A DNA stretch of 63,955 bases, counting the filler, from Nanobdellota archaeon (GTDB lineage Archaea; Nanobdellota; Nanobdellia; B33-G15): the NCBI GenBank assembly GCA_003660925.1. It is 4 parts of 4 records of this genome, joined end to end, with 100 filler letters (N's around TTAATTAATTAA, not from the genome) between each part and the next. Parts side by side here need not be neighbours in the genome. Positions count along the whole stretch, not along the records: positions 40,867 to 59,214 come from QMVD01000009.1; 3 more parts are not named here. The stretch is one strand, 5' to 3'. Within the stretch, counting starts at the first letter, position 1, and every line of letters begins with the position of its first letter. Below the pieces are notes generated by a model. The model saw only the letters and a list, made by a program, of their open reading frames with translations, did no database searches and was not told where the DNA came from. The position numbers and the translations under genes were made by a program. This document shows, piece by piece, positions 53,266 to 60,888 of the stretch.

Positions 53266-54216
53266 TCAATTACCCTGCTTGGATTCCCTGGATATGTAAA
53301 CTATCTCTGGAGGGACATTCGGGAGCTTGTTGGGCCTTATGGCCTTCCTCATGATGACTAACCTCTTCCTCGAACCGGGGACCGAACCTGCTAACATGAC
53401 GTACTTCGTCCTTATCAGACCGTAATTCAGGAAACCACCCTTGGGGTTCACTTCCTCCCCCTCCCCGATCCTCAACAACCACTTGTTGAACTCTGTCCTG
53501 GTGTGGAATCCCATCTGACCTGGTAGGGGGGTGGTGTAGGACAACTTGGCAGGGTGCCAAGGGCCCAGGGAACCAGCCTTCCTTCGCTTCTTCTCTGCCT
53601 TGTGGGACAACAACTTTACACCGAACCTCTTTATTACCCCTTGGAACCCCTTCCCCTTGGTGACCGCGATCACATCCACCTGTTCTCCTGGCTTGAAGAC
53701 TTGCTCCACATCTATGGGCTTTCCAAGCATCTCTTTCAGGGGTTCCACGTCCCCCTCGTATCCTATCTCGAAGATCTCTGGGGTCTTCTTAAAAGGGGGC
53801 TGGGTGTGAACTATGAGTTTGACCTTATCAAACTCCTTAAAGTCCTCCCACTTGTGCTTGTTCTTTCCCCTCTTCACCTTCCTCTCCACCCTTTTATCCA
53901 GGTTCTCCGCCCATATCTCCCCAATGCTCTTGTATCCGTCAGGCGTCTCCTTGTAGAACCTCACCCCCGCTAAGATCAAAGGGGGAGTTTCCAATATAGT
54001 CACGGGGATCGAGATCTTCTCCCCCTTGGTCGGGGAACCCTTCCGGTTATCTATGGCGATTATGTGGGTCATCCCTGCCTTATATCCTGCGAAGCCGAGA
54101 ATCCCCTCTCCCTTCCAATTCCTCACCCTAGGATAAATCCTCTTAGCCCTCTTCCTAGGCCAATACTGCAGGCTACCTCTCCTCGGCGCTTCTCTTTTTC
54201 CTATCTGATGACCCAT
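53266..54216 (-). CDS. rpl3: 50S ribosomal protein uL3
   Basis: PRRGSL, GYKAGMTH, TKGKGFQG, GQMGFHTRTE, GSVPG. Confidence 0.98.
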   Translation of the reverse strand: MGHQIGKREAPRRGSLQYWPRKRAKRIYPRVRNWKGEGILGFAGYKAGMTHIIAIDNRKGSPTKGEKISIPVTILETPPLILAGVRFYKETPDGYKSIGEIWAENLDKRVERKVKRGKNKHKWEDFKEFDKVKLIVHTQPPFKKTPEIFEIGYEGDVEPLKEMLGKPIDVEQVFKPGEQVDVIAVTKGKGFQGVIKRFGVKLLSHKAEKKRRKAGSLGPWHPAKLSYTTPLPGQMGFHTRTEFNKWLLRIGEGEEVNPKGGFLNYGLIRTKYVMLAGSVPGSRKRLVIMRKAIRPNKLPNVPPEIVYISRESKQGN

Positions 54217-54297
54217 ATTGCTTCTTCACTTGACATTTGCTTTTAAATGTAACGGCCTATCAGAAGGGTGCAGCGATTGAAATTTTAAAGGACATCA

Positions 54298-55173
54298 TTA
54301 ATAAAGCTTATGCACGAATAGCCTCATCCTGTCGCCTTTCTTAGCCACTCCTAATATCTCCTCGAGGGTCCCCGCCACCTTTCCATCCCTCAAGATAGGC
54401 CAGTGTCCATCCCCGTAAAAAGGAACCCTGTATACCTTTATCGTGTTCTCTCGAGGCACGTAATTGAGCACCCTTAGCTCATCGACGAGCTTTCCCATCT
54501 CTGTCCACTTAGGGATGTTAGGAGTGTTCCACACCTCCGGGCCCAATGTCCTCCAACAACGCCCCAAATCGTTTGTCTTGACGTGAAACACCTCTGGAGG
54601 ACACTCCTTAGTCCTTATCTCTCCCATGACTCCTCTCTTCAACAAACCCTTACTTTCCAACACGTGAATCCTCCACCTCACGATCCTCTCCATTTTCCTG
54701 AAGATCTTCCCCTTCCCCCTCACGTCCATGTTCCTTTCATATCCTCTCAAGAACTTCCTTATTCCCTCCTTACCGACTATCTCGTAAAGGTAAGGTCTCC
54801 CTCCATCCCTCACGACCTTTCCCTTCAACAATTCCAACAGCCAGTAAGAGGTGGTGGGGTGGAAGTTACAAATCGCCGACAAGGCATTGACCGTCACGTA
54901 GGTGGGGTTCTTCCTCTTATGGGAAGCTAGGTGATAGAGAGACAACCCCACAACGTATGCCCTTAAGAGGGTCCTGTCTAAAGGATATTTGGGCTCCTTG
55001 GACACGTTCACGAACTCCGGAGATAGGGGAAAGTTCATGAGAGAGTTCCTCATTCGCTCGTAAACTTCTCTTTCTCCCTCTTCTAAGGAGAAGTGAATGA
55101 TATTTTCCAACCCAACGGTTTCCCTACCCAACAAGAAGCCCTTCACGGCTGCCTTGGGGTGCATGTAATTCAT
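54298..55173 (-). CDS. Hypothetical protein, possibly winged-helix
   Basis: Long ORF with host-like codon usage. Segments such as VTVNALSAICNFHPTTSYWLLELL...GRPYLYEI and IHVLESKGLL look wHTH-like. Start at 55173 or 55164. Confidence 0.6.
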   Translation of the reverse strand: MNYMHPKAAVKGFLLGRETVGLENIIHFSLEEGEREVYERMRNSLMNFPLSPEFVNVSKEPKYPLDRTLLRAYVVGLSLYHLASHKRKNPTYVTVNALSAICNFHPTTSYWLLELLKGKVVRDGGRPYLYEIVGKEGIRKFLRGYERNMDVRGKGKIFRKMERIVRWRIHVLESKGLLKRGVMGEIRTKECPPEVFHVKTNDLGRCWRTLGPEVWNTPNIPKWTEMGKLVDELRVLNYVPRENTIKVYRVPFYGDGHWPILRDGKVAGTLEEILGVAKKGDRMRLFVHKLY

Positions 55174-55195
55174 GTTTAACTTCGGAATGGTTAAT

Positions 55196-56065
55196 TTAAT
55201 AAACCTTCCTGACGATGTACACAAACTCATCCGGGAATTGAAATTTGTCCACAATCTCATATCTCAATTCTTTTATCATCCCCAAGATCTGTTTCTTTTC
55301 CCTGTAGAACACCTTCCTCCTCTTTATCATGGCCCTCACGCTCCCTGATAGGATCAGGTATTCAGCTGGGGCCCACTGGAGGAGCAAGTTCCCTATCCCT
55401 TTATCATACCTCTCCATGGCAGGGATGACCTTCAAGAAGAGGGCAACGTCAAAGTAGGGGAGGGAAGGCCAAACATTCACATTTCGCTTGGTGAACTTGA
55501 ACTCGATCACTTGGCTCCCGGGTTCCAACCGGTTTGAGATGAGCTTCAGATACTTATTATCTAGGATGACATACTTCCTCTTCTTCTCGATCCCAAAGTA
55601 AAGAGGCCTCTTGAGGCCCATAAATGGGATGGAGAAGGGGTTTATGCCGCATCCCACATCTAACAAGTATTTGGGCTCCCCGATGTTCTTCCACATCCTC
55701 TGATAGAAGTCTTTCTGGTTTCCCCTCCTCTCCGTGGAAACATGTTTTGATAACAGCTCCAAGTGAAGTTTCAGGCACTTTTCGGAGAAACCGTTCTCCC
55801 TGTACTCCGAGGCGATTTGAGAAAAGAGGTCCTCCATCTCCTGGACGCTCGCCCTGTCGTATTGCCTCAACAAGTGATAGATCTCCCTCTTGACCTCCTT
55901 CACCACCCTTTTCCACTCCCTTTTCCTCTGAAAATCCCCCCTGAAGAGGTCTCTCTTCAGATTATTCCTCCTCAACACTTCCTCGAACTTCTTTAAGATG
56001 TCTCCTTCTTTCGCCTCTGGATAGGTCCTTTGGACGCGCTCTATCAGCAACTTTTCAGGGTTCAT
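55196..56065 (-). CDS. FmrO/ArmA/Rmt-family 16S rRNA (guanine-N7) methyltransferase homologue
   Basis: HVSTERR (cf. HxSTxER), LLDVGCGINPF (cf. LDIACGLNPL), DVALFLKVIPAMER (cf. DLALIFKLLPLLER), EFVYIVRK (cf. ELIYLIKK), all in the family order. Confidence 0.85.
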   Translation of the reverse strand: MNPEKLLIERVQRTYPEAKEGDILKKFEEVLRRNNLKRDLFRGDFQRKREWKRVVKEVKREIYHLLRQYDRASVQEMEDLFSQIASEYRENGFSEKCLKLHLELLSKHVSTERRGNQKDFYQRMWKNIGEPKYLLDVGCGINPFSIPFMGLKRPLYFGIEKKRKYVILDNKYLKLISNRLEPGSQVIEFKFTKRNVNVWPSLPYFDVALFLKVIPAMERYDKGIGNLLLQWAPAEYLILSGSVRAMIKRRKVFYREKKQILGMIKELRYEIVDKFQFPDEFVYIVRKVY

Positions 56066-56074
56066 TTTAGAAAA

Positions 56075-57502
56075 TTAGCCCTTCACCACCCCAAGGGGCT
56101 TGAGCCTAGCAACGTATCGGGCAATTCCCAGTTCATGGGCCACTCTTGCCACCTCATCCAAGTCCTTATAAGCCCCTGGGGCCTCTTCCGCTGCCACCCT
56201 CCATGATTTTGCCCTGAGGTAAATTCCCCTTTCCCTTAACTCCCTCTTCACTTGTTCTCCCCTGTATTTCCTCGTAGCAGCCATCCTGCTCAACATCCTC
56301 CCAGCACCATGAGGTGCGCTCCCAAAGCTCAATTCCAACGCCTTCTCCCCTCCGACCATGAGCCAAGAACCAGTTCCCATATGTCCTGGGATCAGGACGG
56401 GCTGACCCACTTCCCTGTAGATCTCGGGGACGTTCGGGTGGCCAGGAGGTAAACTCCTAGTAGCCCCTTTTCTGTGCACGTAAACCTTTTTTCTCTCCCC
56501 ATTTATCTCATGTTCCTCTATCTTCGCTATGTTATGGGCCACATCGTAAATTATATCCATCCCTAAATCCTCAGGGCTCTGGTCGAAGACTTTGGAGAAA
56601 CTCTCCCTCACCCAGTGGGTTATCATTTGTCTGTTAGCCCAAGCGAAGTTGGCAGCACATGCCATTGCCTTAAAGTATTGGTCCACTTCCTTAGTCTTAG
56701 CGGGCGCGTACACGAGCTCTCTATCTGGAAGTTTCCTGACCAAGTCATGGAACCTGCTCTCCAACAACTTCAAGTAATCCGTGCAGACCTGATGACCAAA
56801 CCCCCTTGAACCTGTGTGGACCATGATCACTATTTGATCCTCTTCTACTCCGAACGCCTTCGCGACCTTTTGATCGTAAACTCTCTCCACCTTCTCGATT
56901 TCCAAGAAGTGGTTCCCAGCCCCCAAGCTCCCTAATTGAGGGGCCCCCCTCTCTTTTGCCCTCCCACCTATCACGTCCGGATCATTGGGTTCCAAGCAAC
57001 CTCCTTCCTCCAACCTCTCCAGATCTTTTTTCCATCCGTATCCATTCTCCACCGCCCACCTGGCCCCCATCTGAAGGACTTCATTCAGTTGTCCCCTACT
57101 CAACCTCACTTTTCCTCCTACTCCTACTCCAGAGGGGACGTTGACGAACAAGGTTTCTATGAGCTCGATTATATTATCTTTAACATCCCCTACCTTCAAG
57201 TTTGTCCTTATCAATCTCACCCCACAGTTTATGTCAAATCCTATGCCCCCAGGGCTCAGTCCTCCCTCCTCATAATCTAATGCTGCGACCCCTCCGATGG
57301 GGAAGCCGTAACCCTGATGCCCGTCTGGCATGACTAGTGAGTACTTATAAATGCCTGGGAGCGTGGCCACGTTCTTGGCCTGTCTTAGGGTTTCATCCTG
57401 CTGCATCTTCTCCAATAACTTCTCAGAAGCGAATATCCTGGCAGGCACCCTCATCCTTCCCTCCTTCTCGATCTCCCATACGAACTCCTCTACCCTTTTC
57501 AT
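56075..57502 (-). CDS. rtcB: RNA-splicing ligase RtcB
   Basis: MPDGHQGYGFPIG, DINCG, GNHFLE, HTGSRG, HNIAK, HRKGAT, HGAGR, EEAPGAYK. Confidence 0.98.
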   Translation of the reverse strand: MKRVEEFVWEIEKEGRMRVPARIFASEKLLEKMQQDETLRQAKNVATLPGIYKYSLVMPDGHQGYGFPIGGVAALDYEEGGLSPGGIGFDINCGVRLIRTNLKVGDVKDNIIELIETLFVNVPSGVGVGGKVRLSRGQLNEVLQMGARWAVENGYGWKKDLERLEEGGCLEPNDPDVIGGRAKERGAPQLGSLGAGNHFLEIEKVERVYDQKVAKAFGVEEDQIVIMVHTGSRGFGHQVCTDYLKLLESRFHDLVRKLPDRELVYAPAKTKEVDQYFKAMACAANFAWANRQMITHWVRESFSKVFDQSPEDLGMDIIYDVAHNIAKIEEHEINGERKKVYVHRKGATRSLPPGHPNVPEIYREVGQPVLIPGHMGTGSWLMVGGEKALELSFGSAPHGAGRMLSRMAATRKYRGEQVKRELRERGIYLRAKSWRVAAEEAPGAYKDLDEVARVAHELGIARYVARLKPLGVVKG

Positions 57503-57553
57503 GAGGTATTCAACTCTAGAAAGCCTTTTAAACCTTTGCGACTAAACTTTTTT

Positions 57554-58564
57554 GTGATAACTCTAGAGAAGTTAAAAGAAGTCCAGAGGAAGATGAAGAG
57601 AGAGAAACTGGATTACCTCTTGGCTTTTGATCCGACCTCCATAGCTTACATAAGTGGCATCCCTCTCTCCCTCTCCACTTCTCCTGTCCCTGCTCTTGCC
57701 ATCATACCGTCCAAGGGAAAGATAGAACTCAGATTGTATGAGGGGGATTGGGACAAAGCCCATATAGATGAGAGGACGACGGAACTCGCCCCTTCGAATT
57801 GGGAAGTTTCCTTGGAAGGGGAGATAGGGGTGGAAAGCTTCGTCCCAGCTTATCTCTTGGAGCACGAGTACTATAAGAAGTTGGAGATGAAGCCCGTCAA
57901 AATTCTCGCGGAGAGCATGAGGAGGAAGACGAAAGAGGAAATAGACCTCATGAGAGAGGCAGGAGAGCAAGTGGATGAGTTGATAGAATTCGCGATGGGC
58001 AACTTAGACCTCCCCGAACAGAACTTAGCTTACCTCCTCATGAGCCACTGCGAGATGGGCGGGATGAAGCACTGGCCCCCTCCAATCGTCTCGTATGATG
58101 AAAACTCCGCGAGGATGAGAAGGGGAAAATTGGACATGCATCCTGAACTTACTGAGAAAGAATTCGAAAAGCACGTGCTTTTGGACATCTACCCCTGTTA
58201 TAGAGGGTATCATGTAGATGCGTCTTTCACGTATTCGAAGATCCCTGAAGTCGTGGAGAAAGTCATCCCGAAAGTCCGGGAAACCCTTGAGGAACTCGTG
58301 GACATGGCAACGCCAGGCACACCAGTCAAAGAATTTCAGATGATCGCTGAGGAGAAGTTGGGAGAAAAGATGAGACATGGTGTGATTCATGGTATAGGTG
58401 TCCTCTTGCACGAGCCCTTGGGGGCAACCTTGGAAAAAGGGAATGTGGTGGCCATCGAGCCCGCCATTTATATAGAAAACAAGTATGGGGTTAGGTTGGA
58501 AACGACCGTGGTTGTGGATGACGTGCCCGAAGTCCTGATCCAAGCACCTTTCATTTGGACTTAG
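57554..58564 (+). CDS. M24-family (Xaa-Pro) peptidase
   Basis: Reads on the + strand (TTG 57536 or GTG 57554 to TAG 58564), although the supplied track labels it '-'. Creatinase-like N-domain, LDIYPCYRGYHVD, HGIGVLLHE, IEPAIY, GVRLE. Confidence 0.88.
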   Translation: MITLEKLKEVQRKMKREKLDYLLAFDPTSIAYISGIPLSLSTSPVPALAIIPSKGKIELRLYEGDWDKAHIDERTTELAPSNWEVSLEGEIGVESFVPAYLLEHEYYKKLEMKPVKILAESMRRKTKEEIDLMREAGEQVDELIEFAMGNLDLPEQNLAYLLMSHCEMGGMKHWPPPIVSYDENSARMRRGKLDMHPELTEKEFEKHVLLDIYPCYRGYHVDASFTYSKIPEVVEKVIPKVRETLEELVDMATPGTPVKEFQMIAEEKLGEKMRHGVIHGIGVLLHEPLGATLEKGNVVAIEPAIYIENKYGVRLETTVVVDDVPEVLIQAPFIWT

Positions 58565-58971
58565 AGATCTAGGACAACTCTCGCGAATTTCTTACCTCTT
58601 TCCTCCCAAGTCTTGAGGTTGTGGTAGGTGACCGCCTTCACTAATCCTCCCGCTTCGTGTTTTTTCGGGTCAAACCTCTCGCCGTAACACTTACAACGAA
58701 GCCTCGTATCTTCTATCTCTAACTTAAATTCCTTGAAGATCAAGTTTTCAGTCTCAAATATATACAACAGCTCGTCAAGGAAATCGTGAAGTAGGTCTTC
58801 CCTAGACTTTGCTTTCAGCTCTATTTCCTTTTCGATTTTCCCTTCCACTCTTTTTAGGTCACACATTATGCTCAGCATGGCCTTGGCGCTCTCCGAGAAG
58901 ACCTCCTCCCAAGAATTTCCCTCGGCGATGAACTCAGCATCCGCGGTGTGGGGTAGATATCTAAAAGGCAT
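58561..58971 (-). CDS. Archease
   Basis: FRYLPHTAD, FLDELLY, VKAVTYH, VLDL. Confidence 0.96.
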   Translation of the reverse strand: MPFRYLPHTADAEFIAEGNSWEEVFSESAKAMLSIMCDLKRVEGKIEKEIELKAKSREDLLHDFLDELLYIFETENLIFKEFKLEIEDTRLRCKCYGERFDPKKHEAGGLVKAVTYHNLKTWEERGKKFARVVLDL

Positions 58972-58984
58972 GGAGAAGAGTAGG

Positions 58985-59214
58985 TCAGGCGGGTTGATAA
59001 GCCTTTCTCTCTTTTTCTAAGTAACTGAGCAACCTCTTCCTCACAGCACTTGGGGAAAATCTCCTCGGCATCGTGGACTTGCAAGACTCAAAGCGTTTGA
59101 AGTCCGTGGCGCCGATTTCACTTATTTTTCGCTTAAATTCCTCCCATTCTTCCTCTGGAAGGGAAATAACCTCTTCCGAGAGCTCCCTGACGAGCCTAGA
59201 GGGAGGATCTGCCA
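58985..59214 (-). CDS. 3' end of a hypothetical protein cut by the contig end
   Basis: Open frame ADPPSRLVRELSEEV...LEKERKAYQPA* runs from the linker to TGA at 58985. Confidence 0.55.
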
Positions 59215-59314
59215 NNNNNNNNNNNNNNNNNNNNNNNNNNNNNNNNNNNNNNNNNNNNTTAATTAATTAANNNNNNNNNNNNNNNNNNNNNNNNNNNNNN
59301 NNNNNNNNNNNNNN
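59215..59314. other. Artificial contig linker
   Basis: N-TTAATTAATTAA-N. Confidence 0.98.
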
Positions 59315-60127
59315 AGGAGACGCAGATAGGTCGAGGACGATGTGGTTCACCCTTGGCCCGAACCTCTTGATCTTGGTGATCTTCTCCACCTCTATGTGTT
59401 TTCCCACTTCCCTTCCGAGCTCTTTCAACTCCTCGACGATGGAATCGTATCCCTTATCCATGTCATAGACAGTATGATAGTAAATCTTTCCTTCCTCTAA
59501 AGTCATCAAGGCGTGTTTGAAGCAATGTTTCGGGTTGGGCAACAAGCCCATGATCACTTCATCCACTTGGAACTTCTCCTTCTCTATCACCTCCCTTGCA
59601 TCCCCAAGGAAAGGTATAACCTTAGAATTTAATCCGTTCAGCTTTATGTTCTCCTTTAAATAATGAAAAGCAACGGGATTCTTCTCTATTGCGTAGACAC
59701 TCTTCACCTTCTCATTTTTTCCAGCAGGTATGGAAAAGTAGCCTATTCCTGCGAACATGTCCAAGACCACACCCCTCGTCACTTCTTTCATCCTGATCCT
59801 TTCTTTGATGTTCCCCTTACAGAACATGACCTTCGAAACATCTAATTTGAATAAGCACTCATTTTCCTTGTGTACGGTTTCCGTCCCGTCGCCGGCTATC
59901 ACCTCGATGTTCGGGACCCTGAACTCCTCCCTTATCCTTCCCTTGTTCAGACAGACCGTCTTGAACTTCGGTAGAAACTCTAACGTCTTTTCCCCGATTT
60001 CCTCCTTGTATTTCCAGAGTTCCTTCGGCAAGTTCAGGATTATCACATCACCGACCTTCTGATAACCATTCGGCAATAGTTCTTGACTTATCCCCAATTC
60101 CTCGCTTATGAATTCCTTCCACCTCAT
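59315..60127 (-). CDS. Trm5/Tyw2 family SAM-dependent tRNA modification enzyme, Taw2-like
   Basis: GDV, ETVHKEN, DVSKVMF, GNIKER, DMFAGIGYF, EKNP, VIMG (Taw2-type), HIVLD. Near-complete at the contig end. Confidence 0.85.
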
Positions 60128-60888
60128 TTCCTCAAGTCGTAGACTACCCTGAACAACCTTGGGGCGACCTCTCCACACTTCCTCTTCCCGAGCACTTCTA
60201 AGTCGAATTCCTTTTCCTCTCCCTCCTTCTCGAAGGTGTAGAGGTGAATTATCCCTCCCTTCTTGACCGCCTTTTTCGCGACCGGAAGGTATTCGAGAGA
60301 ACCCTTTGGATAGTTCATTATGATCCTGTCCATCTCGCTGATTTTTTCTCTCTCCACGACTTCCTTACAGTCCCCTTCATATATCTTCAGCTCGACGTGA
60401 TTCAACTTCGCGTTCTCCCTTAAGTATTTGACAGCCCAAGGGTTTATGTCAATGGCCGTCACATCGGCTTTTTTAGCGATGGGTATGGAAAAGGGGCCCA
60501 CACCAGCGAACATATCCAAGACCTTCTCCCCTTCCTTAACCAATCCTATCACTCTCTTCCTCTCGCTTTGCATCCTCGGGGTGAAGAAGACCTTCGAGAC
60601 GTCTAGCTTGAACAGACAATTATTCTCCTTATGAATCGTTTCGGTTCCATTCCCCCATATGACTTCTATCCTTGGAATCCTCTCTTCATTCTCTATCTTT
60701 CCGATCTTGTTACACACGGTTTTCACGCGCTTGTGGATCTTAACGATAGCCTCTGCCACGACTTCTTTTTTCTCGAAATCTTCTGGAAGTTGGACGATGG
60801 CTATGTCTCCTACCAGGTCAAATCCCCTGTGAACTAGTTCGAGCTCTTCCTCGCTCAATTTTCCTTTCAAAAGTTCTTTTAACTCCAT
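60124..60888 (-). CDS. Trm5-family tRNA (m1G37) methyltransferase-like protein
   Basis: FDLVGDIAI, ETIHKEN, KVFFTPR..ER, DMFAGVGPF, DINP, RIIMNYP (Trm5-type). Confidence 0.87.
   Translation of the reverse strand: MELKELLKGKLSEEELELVHRGFDLVGDIAIVQLPEDFEKKEVVAEAIVKIHKRVKTVCNKIGKIENEERIPRIEVIWGNGTETIHKENNCLFKLDVSKVFFTPRMQSERKRVIGLVKEGEKVLDMFAGVGPFSIPIAKKADVTAIDINPWAVKYLRENAKLNHVELKIYEGDCKEVVEREKISEMDRIIMNYPKGSLEYLPVAKKAVKKGGIIHLYTFEKEGEEKEFDLEVLGKRKCGEVAPRLFRVVYDLRK

What the first reader, a model, noticed from the sequence alone, without database searches (positions are those of the whole stretch)
55196..56065. Archaeal homologue of the aminoglycoside-resistance 16S m7G1405 methyltransferases (ArmA/RmtB/Sgm) in a core translation locus
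Seen: the motifs HVSTERR, LDVGCGINPF, DVALFLKVIPAMER and EFVYIVRK occur in the FmrO-family order. The gene starts 9 nt after the rtcB stop, on the same strand and contig as the S10-spc superoperon. No mobile element is nearby and codon usage looks host-like. Known: this family is characterised from aminoglycoside-producing actinomycetes and from plasmids of pathogens. Inference: this is either a housekeeping decoding-site rRNA modification in an archaeon, possibly a deep-branching source of the resistance family, or a defence gene. The ER to RR change in the HxSTxER motif and the apparent loss of the second SAM-binding Asp could mean altered specificity or inactivity.
Basis: partly seen in the sequence, partly recalled or inferred. 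Interest (0 to 1): 0.82.

Follow-up and report, generated by a model that had tools for sequence, protein, structure and literature searches.

The report
Divergent archaeal Arm/Rmt-fold RNA methyltransferase
This gene in a tiny archaeon is a real but distant relative of the bacterial enzymes that methylate ribosomal RNA to block aminoglycoside antibiotics; archaeal relatives are already known, but this one belongs to a separate branch whose members mostly sit beside a base-swapping enzyme, so its exact RNA target is still open.

Summary
The ORF is real and of the Arm/Rmt (FmrO) family: Pfam PF07091 over cut-off, fold Z 25 to Sgm. Archaeal members are not new: NEQ545 was reported in 2010 (PMC2896518), 120 of 201 genomes of this phylum carry one, and this scan noted them before on other DNA. 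What is new here: the protein is not in that main Nanoarchaeia clade (AU p 0.002). It sits in a distinct 'LRQY' subfamily (100/100), found in 4 of 401 class genomes and in scattered bacteria. A short archaeal-type tRNA-guanine transglycosylase (TGT) gene lies upstream of it in 6 of 7 bacterial loci and 1 of 4 archaeal loci; none was found in this genome. Catalytic Lys and most SAM residues are kept. 'ER to RR' is a one-codon deletion; the motif III Asp is Lys only here and in a 98% twin. Best reading: a native small-subunit rRNA guanine methyltransferase, with G1405 unproven; published N. equitans data suggest G1405 there is not fully methylated. 'Source of the resistance family' is unsupported. 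rtcB adjacency is not conserved among archaea.

The parts
55196..56065 (-). Arm/Rmt (FmrO)-family methyltransferase, 289 aa (P0001), LRQY subfamily
   Evidence: PF07091 53.9 bits, cut-off 27; NF000466 79.8 bits, cut-off 250; fold Z 25.1 to Sgm; tree
55859..55879 (-). Subfamily signature Y63-x-x-L-R-Q-Y69; Tyr63 stands where RmtC has the essential His54, Tyr69 matches RmtC Tyr60
   Evidence: residue roles from PMC10288597
55727..55744 (-). H108-V-S110-T-E112-R113 motif with a one-codon deletion between Thr and Glu
55637..55660 (-). SAM-binding motif I, D136-V-G-C-G-I-N-P143
55586..55588 (-). Glu160, ribose-binding acidic residue (RmtC Asp160, Sgm Asp156)
   Evidence: Glu is common here in archaeal members (26 of 50)
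55496..55498 (-). Lys190 in place of the motif III Asp (RmtC Asp188, Sgm Asp182)
   Evidence: Lys only in P0001 and P0002
55430..55432 (-). Lys212, equivalent of the catalytic RmtC Lys204
   Evidence: invariant in all 164 rows
56075..57502 (-). rtcB RNA ligase, 9 nt upstream, probably co-transcribed; adjacency not conserved among archaea
   Evidence: PF01139 574 bits
54298..55173 (-). Downstream 291-aa ORF of unknown function, also present in the same position in G001 and L085
   Evidence: no Pfam or NCBIfam match; Atlas hits all under 0.9

Best explanation
A native, chromosomal, SAM-dependent RNA guanine methyltransferase of the Arm/Rmt fold. Shown: fold, family, intact frame under purifying selection, most catalytic residues, and a G at 16S position 1405 in this genome. 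Inferred: like RmtC, the basic N-terminal helices dock on the small ribosomal subunit, a guanine at the top of helix 44 is flipped into the pocket between Tyr69 and Lys212, and N7 is methylated. G1405 is the default target, but a neighbouring base is possible. The role is most likely housekeeping tuning or stabilisation of the decoding site in a probably thermophilic DPANN archaeon (16S rRNA 62% G+C), not selected aminoglycoside resistance. It belongs to the LRQY subfamily, which has moved between archaea and bacteria, and is not an orthologue of the common Woesearchaeota/Pacearchaeota gene.
For: Only Arm/Rmt families match in NCBIfam and lead in Pfam and the PDB. Model pLDDT 93; Z 17-25 to Arm/Rmt structures against at most 14.5 for other methyltransferases. 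Equivalents of RmtC K47, R50, Y60, S107, R111, D160, K204, R211, K236 and R241 are K56, K59, Y69, S110, R113, E160, K212, R219, R244 and R249 (roles from PMC10288597). Synonymous excess: 8 against 2 in 72 codons of G001; 17 against 3 in the L085 fragment. A related strain contig spans the gene with no indel inside it. G1405 and its partner C1496 are present (L017:2930). Homologues are nearly always single-copy and present or missing family by family in 120 of 201 genomes.
Against: His54, essential in RmtC, is Tyr in all 49 other LRQY rows; the Phe-Pro that follows the conserved Ser is replaced in all 49. The motif III Asp, whose loss abolishes SAM binding in Sgm (PMC2896518), is Lys here, although active ArmA has Asn. 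In N. equitans, which encodes NEQ545, an RNase T1 fragment starting at U1406 was observed and G1401 was flagged as probably modified (PMC5389701), while m7G1405 blocks T1 cutting there (PMC3923132, PMC2760815): my inference is that G1405 is at least partly unmethylated in that organism. Most bacterial LRQY genes are coupled to a short TGT that was not found in this genome. No activity or expression data exist.
Confidence: 0.45

Rival explanations
1. The LRQY subfamily is one half of a two-enzyme module with a short TgtA-like transglycosylase that acts at the 7-position of a guanine: the TGT swaps in a 7-deazaguanine that the methyltransferase then methylates, or the Arm-fold protein presents the base, or the TGT removes the m7G. 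In this genome the gene is an orphan that has lost the partner, or works with the ordinary full-length TgtA.
For: Short TGT (PF01702; closest model TgtA, 219-242 bits, below its cut-off of 350) directly upstream in 5 of 7 bacterial loci with upstream DNA, two genes away in 1, elsewhere in the genome in 1, and overlapping the gene in archaeal G009. In one bacterial order all 5 LRQY genomes lie among the 7 short-TGT genomes of 251 (3 of them built the profile). A bacterial-type tgt also lies upstream of rmtD2 and rmtG and in L059, L061, L083.
Against: 3 of 4 archaeal carriers (G000, G015, G040; 88-97% complete) show no short TGT; 2 of the 7 short-TGT genomes show no LRQY gene; QueC was found in none of the 4 archaeal carriers. 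Carriers may be kin, so the counts overstate. No chemistry is shown.
Confidence: 0.25
2. Catalytically weak or dead copy kept as an RNA-binding ribosome assembly factor, or a slowly decaying gene.
For: Two private changes beside the SAM site (Lys190, one-codon deletion), the longest end branch of its archaeal group (0.93), not found in two same-family genomes of 93% and 72% completeness. The genome's RsmA/Dim1 homologue also looks degenerate.
Against: Synonymous excess and intact frame in related strains; motif I, Ser110, Arg113, Glu160 and Lys212 all kept.
Confidence: 0.15
3. Defence gene: the methylation shields the decoding site from aminoglycosides or from ribotoxins, with RtcB as the repair partner.
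For: The 16S has the bacterial-type A1408. rtcB is adjacent here, in L033 and in three related bacterial loci, one with a 2'-phosphotransferase gene as well.
Against: rtcB is absent from the fetched flanks of the other archaeal homologues except L033; no transposase or resistance cluster nearby; score far below the NCBIfam resistance cut-off; presence in 60% of a phylum of tiny genomes fits housekeeping better.
Confidence: 0.1

Closest known systems
NEQ545 of Nanoarchaeum equitans and its Nst1 orthologue (PMC2896518; PMC3655853)
   Same: Arm-family protein in a reduced nanoarchaeal genome, activity never shown in the passages read.
   Different: NEQ545 is described as lacking one N-terminal helix; P0001 has a long N-terminal domain and falls outside the main Nanoarchaeia clade. 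I did not compare the NEQ545 sequence itself.
Sgm (PDB 3LCU/3LCV), producer-type 16S m7G1405 methyltransferase
   Same: Best sequence and fold match (E 2e-10, Z 25.1); His, Ser, Thr, Glu, Arg, motif I and catalytic Lys kept.
   Different: About 20% identity; Asp182 equivalent is Lys; one-codon deletion; larger N-terminal domain in another orientation (rmsd 6.5 A over 244 residues).
RmtC, ArmA, RmtB, RmtD, RmtF, RmtG (acquired enzymes; NCBIfam NF000466)
   Same: Same fold and most RmtC functional residues.
   Different: 79.8 bits against a cut-off of 250; His54, Gly58, Phe233-Pro234 and Met245 equivalents differ; chromosomal, host-like codons; separate clade.
Archaeosine tRNA-guanine transglycosylase TgtA (TIGR00432), for the partner gene of the subfamily
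   Same: Closest model for the 315-344 aa partner.
   Different: The partner is about 200 residues shorter than the full-length TgtA of this genome (545 aa), occurs in bacteria and is below the family cut-off; it was not found in this genome.

Membership tests
Arm/Rmt (FmrO, PF07091) evolutionary family | Profile score over the Pfam cut-off and best hit among families | tested here: met
   53.9 bits against 27, E 2e-14; next family E 0.007
Arm/Rmt (FmrO, PF07091) evolutionary family | Helical N-terminal domain plus class I Rossmann domain with two extra helices | tested here: met
   Model pLDDT 93.4; top 10 VIA rows all Arm/Rmt, Z 17-25
Arm/Rmt (FmrO, PF07091) evolutionary family | H-x-S-T-x-E-R motif, motif I Asp/Gly, catalytic Lys, C-terminal Glu | tested here: met
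   All residues present; spacing shortened by one
16S m7G1405 resistance methyltransferases (NF000466 equivalog) | Score over the curated cut-off of 250 bits | tested here: not met
   79.8 bits
16S m7G1405 resistance methyltransferases (NF000466 equivalog) | His54 equivalent, essential in RmtC | tested here: not met
   Tyr63; His in 7 of 7 clinical rows, Tyr in 49 of 49 other LRQY rows
16S m7G1405 resistance methyltransferases (NF000466 equivalog) | Motif III Asp (Asn tolerated) binding the SAM adenine | tested here: not met
   Lys190; clinical rows Asp 6, Asn 1
16S m7G1405 resistance methyltransferases (NF000466 equivalog) | Target G1405 paired with C1496 in the host 16S rRNA | tested here: met
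   L017:2930 and 3' strand, numbered by motif
16S m7G1405 resistance methyltransferases (NF000466 equivalog) | N7 methylation of G1405 on 30S subunits and aminoglycoside resistance | not testable with these tools
   Needs biochemistry; published N. equitans data cast doubt for that organism
Main Nanoarchaeia (Woese/Pacearchaeota) Arm-like clade | One clade with the common archaeal gene | tested here: not met
   AU test p 0.0023, 22 rows against 43; group named after the tree was seen
TGT-coupled LRQY module | Short TgtA-like partner gene in the same genome | tested here: inconclusive
   Only full-length TgtA found, but the genome is 88.5% complete

The most novel reading that the evidence does not exclude
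The LRQY subfamily and its short archaeal-type TGT form an undescribed cross-domain pathway that edits the 7-position of a ribosomal RNA guanine by base exchange plus methylation (a 7-deazaguanine, or a removable m7G, at the decoding site). The Arm/Rmt resistance enzymes, several of which still travel with a tgt gene, would then be offshoots of such a two-gene module, and this gene its partner-less archaeal form.
Probability: 0.2. Interest if true: 0.8.

Novelty: new variant of a known kind. Interest (0 to 1): 0.42.

Why it matters
The natural job of Arm/Rmt-family genes outside antibiotic producers and pathogens is untested, although they are in about 60% of sampled genomes of this archaeal phylum. 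This gene marks a third branch with changed substrate-facing residues and a transglycosylase partner. If that branch edits another base, or inserts a 7-deazaguanine into rRNA, it would add a new ribosome modification and explain why tgt lies beside rmtD and rmtG on clinical plasmids. If it simply makes m7G1405, it is an ordinary distant member and mainly a caution against calling such genes resistance genes.

Tried and rejected
Replacement of RsmA/Dim1: in 41 genomes, 8 have both genes, 12 the Arm-like gene only, 12 RsmA only, 9 neither (my count; Fisher p 0.35); rejected. Conserved synteny with rtcB in archaea: seen only in this genome and L033 among the loci scanned; rejected as a general feature. 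Viral carriage: no full-length relative in viral contigs (only short motif matches); the 2 phage-collection hits are FmrO genes in records of one Acinetobacter phage, not followed up. TGT fusion: the two long homologues checked (P0032, P0117) are fused to another methyltransferase domain, not to TGT. Downstream ORF: no family found. 16S insertion as a bulge-helix-bulge intron needing RtcB: it folds as three hairpins inside an extended helix, so an expansion segment is more likely. The CPR methyltransferase preprint 10.64898/2026.07.13.738296 has no passage on G1405, armA, rmt or archaea.

Full report
Observation. The ORF 55196-56065 (-) encodes 289 aa with the four motifs quoted. The window joins four contigs; this gene, rtcB and the S10-spc genes all lie on contig C9. 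rtcB ends 9 nt before it. A 291-aa unknown ORF follows, then an 81-nt gap with a TATA-like element before rpl3, so the gene is near the ribosomal-protein cluster but not shown to be in its operon. Codon use is host-like. The genome is 672 kb and 88.5% complete. A genome of the same class, G028, has the same protein as a record titled Nanoarchaeota archaeon, so the class is taken to be Nanoarchaeia (inference).

Family. Pfam FmrO scores 53.9 bits against a cut-off of 27. All 8 NCBIfam matches are Rmt models; the general one scores 79.8 against a cut-off of 250. The best PDB sequence hit is Sgm. The AlphaFold model (pLDDT 93.4) matches Arm/Rmt structures first by Foldseek and by VIA-align, Z 17-25 against at most 14.5 for other methyltransferases. 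I could not inspect pocket coordinates.

Already known. PMC2896518 (parts 2-4 of 6 read) names NEQ545 the first archaeal orthologue of the Arm family and says its function is unclear. PMC3655853 (passages) notes the gene in both nanoarchaea. A profile of 14 archaeal homologues finds a match in 120 of 201 phylum genomes, nearly always one copy, present or missing family by family, and 986 clusters at E under 1e-30 in the representative library. Of 66 named loci, most titles are Woesearchaeota, Pacearchaeota or Nanoarchaeota. Eight earlier notes of this scan say much the same for other genomes; they are not evidence.

What is different here. In a 65-row maximum-likelihood tree (rows subsampled by hand from about 330 proteins and 125 loci; no actinomycete producer enzyme and no sequence named NEQ545 included; unrooted) the protein lies in a 33-row clade (100/100), split into 6 archaeal-type rows (98/94) and 27 bacterial-type rows (100/98). 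The main Nanoarchaeia clade (16 rows, 99/96) and the clinical enzymes lie elsewhere. Forcing it into the main archaeal clade is rejected (p-AU 0.0023), and so is one archaea/bacteria split (p-AU 0.00014); both groupings were named after the tree was seen, and some rows are assigned to a domain only by their place in it. So the family crossed domains more than once; direction and origin cannot be told. Named bacterial members are Desulfobacterales, Thioploca, Parabeggiatoa, Aminicenantes and three Chloroflexota groups; most rows have no name. Among 401 class genomes only 4 score at subfamily level (269 bits or more, next 154); all 4 helped build the profile, and a fragment in G001 fell under the threshold.

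Residues. Using RmtC roles from PMC10288597 (parts 2-3 of 6 read), the protein keeps equivalents of K47, R50, Y60, S107, R111, D160, K204, R211, K236 and R241. The subfamily differs at His54 (Tyr in 49 of 49 other rows; His in 7 of 7 clinical), Gly58 (Arg in 49 of 49) and Phe233-Pro234 (Phe in 0 of 49; in 50 of 50 main-clade rows). Private to this protein and its 98% twin: Lys at the motif III Asp, and, shared with only 1 of 43 bacterial rows, a one-residue shorter spacer. Sgm D182A loses SAM binding, but ArmA has Asn there. The frame is intact in a strain contig with 116 substitutions over 54200-56827 and one intergenic indel, and two fragments show synonymous excess, 8:2 and 17:3.

Neighbourhood. 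LRQY genes were fetched from 9 genomes of the phylum and order of G228. Two lack upstream DNA. Of the other 7, a short TgtA-like gene lies directly upstream in 5, two AAA-ATPase genes away in 1, and elsewhere in the genome in 1. Archaeal G009 has the same pair and no other TGT. In 251 genomes of one order, 5 have the LRQY gene and 7 the short TGT; the 5 lie among the 7. Three of them built the TGT profile and kin are not independent, so the small p-values overstate. Against a fixed module: G000, G015 and G040 show no short TGT, which is found in 1 of 401 class genomes; this genome has only a full-length 545-aa TgtA; QueC was found in 1 of 5 carriers, none archaeal. A bacterial-type tgt precedes rmtD2 and rmtG (also stated for rmtG in PMC3904158, passages). 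I had seen the pair before three earlier notes on it came up; the preQ0 lead is theirs. rtcB is adjacent in this genome, in L033 and in three related bacterial loci.

Target. The 16S gene has G1405 and C1496, and A1408-A1409 as in N. equitans (numbering by motif, recalled). PMC5389701 (passages, two sections and supplement legends read, figures not seen) reports an RNase T1 fragment 1406-1410 in N. equitans and suggests that G1401 is modified. PMC3923132 and PMC2760815 (passages) show that m7G1405 prevents that cut. My inference: an organism with an Arm-family gene can have G1405 at least partly unmethylated. The authors did not draw this link in what I read, and NEQ545 is described as truncated, so the point may not carry over to this subfamily.

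Mechanism and verdict. Most likely (0.45) a native enzyme that docks on the small subunit and methylates a flipped guanine at the top of helix 44 as a housekeeping mark; fold, residues and selection are shown, substrate and chemistry are inferred. Rivals: orphan of a TGT-coupled guanine-7 editing module (0.25), weak or dead copy (0.15), defence (0.10). It works like an Arm/Rmt enzyme and is a member of the evolutionary family, but it fails three tested features of the resistance equivalog and should not be filed as a resistance gene. Ten literature searches found no description of this subfamily or of a function for the TGT pairing; the library lacks most subscription papers, and supplementary alignments and trees of PMC2896518 and PMC10288597 were not seen. 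New variant of a known kind; interest 0.42.

Noticed in passing
L017:2830-2890 (G000:C15, 16S rRNA gene): About 61 extra nucleotides just before the GGUGAAUACG motif, folding as three hairpins inside an extended helix (z -5.3); looks like an rRNA expansion segment.
   Followed up: partly
L017:3010-3020: The 16S reads GUCGUCACAAGG where the usual sequence (recalled) has GUCGUAACAAGG: a change at about position 1499, next to the decoding site.
   Followed up: no
G000:C21:5357-6112: The best RsmA/Dim1 homologue scores only 40 bits and seems to lack the glycine-rich and catalytic motifs; possibly an inactive form.
   Followed up: partly
window 54298-55173: Unknown 291-aa gene kept between the methyltransferase and rpl3 in this genus; no family found; less conserved than its neighbours (34 synonymous, 21 non-synonymous changes against G001).
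   Followed up: partly
window 56075-60888: rtcB, an M24 peptidase on the other strand and archease lie together; on the next contig two Trm5/Taw2-family genes are in tandem.
   Followed up: no
L144:1585-6122 (G315): Operon-like run short TGT, LRQY methyltransferase, rtcB, 2'-phosphotransferase (Tpt1): an RNA repair cluster in a bacterium.
   Followed up: partly
L075:2318-3130, L083:2354-3205: Arm-family genes in two bacteria with 1.1-1.3 Mb genomes fall nearest to ArmA in the quick tree (support 84; unresolved); L083 has tgt upstream.
   Followed up: no
L097, L098, L081: Second, highly diverged Arm-family paralogues in some Woesearchaeota-like genomes have lost the H-x-S-T-x-E-R motif and group with the bacterial enzymes.
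   Followed up: no
L092:2278-2931 (G013): A short 217-aa member whose motif reads Q-R-P-T in place of H-x-S-T.
   Followed up: no
P0032, P0117: FmrO domain fused to a second class I methyltransferase domain.
   Followed up: no
L020, L027, L042, L056: Records titled Methanosarcinales or Acidobacteriota carry main-clade Nanoarchaeia proteins; the two checked are 1.0-1.2 Mb genomes, so the labels are probably wrong.
   Followed up: partly
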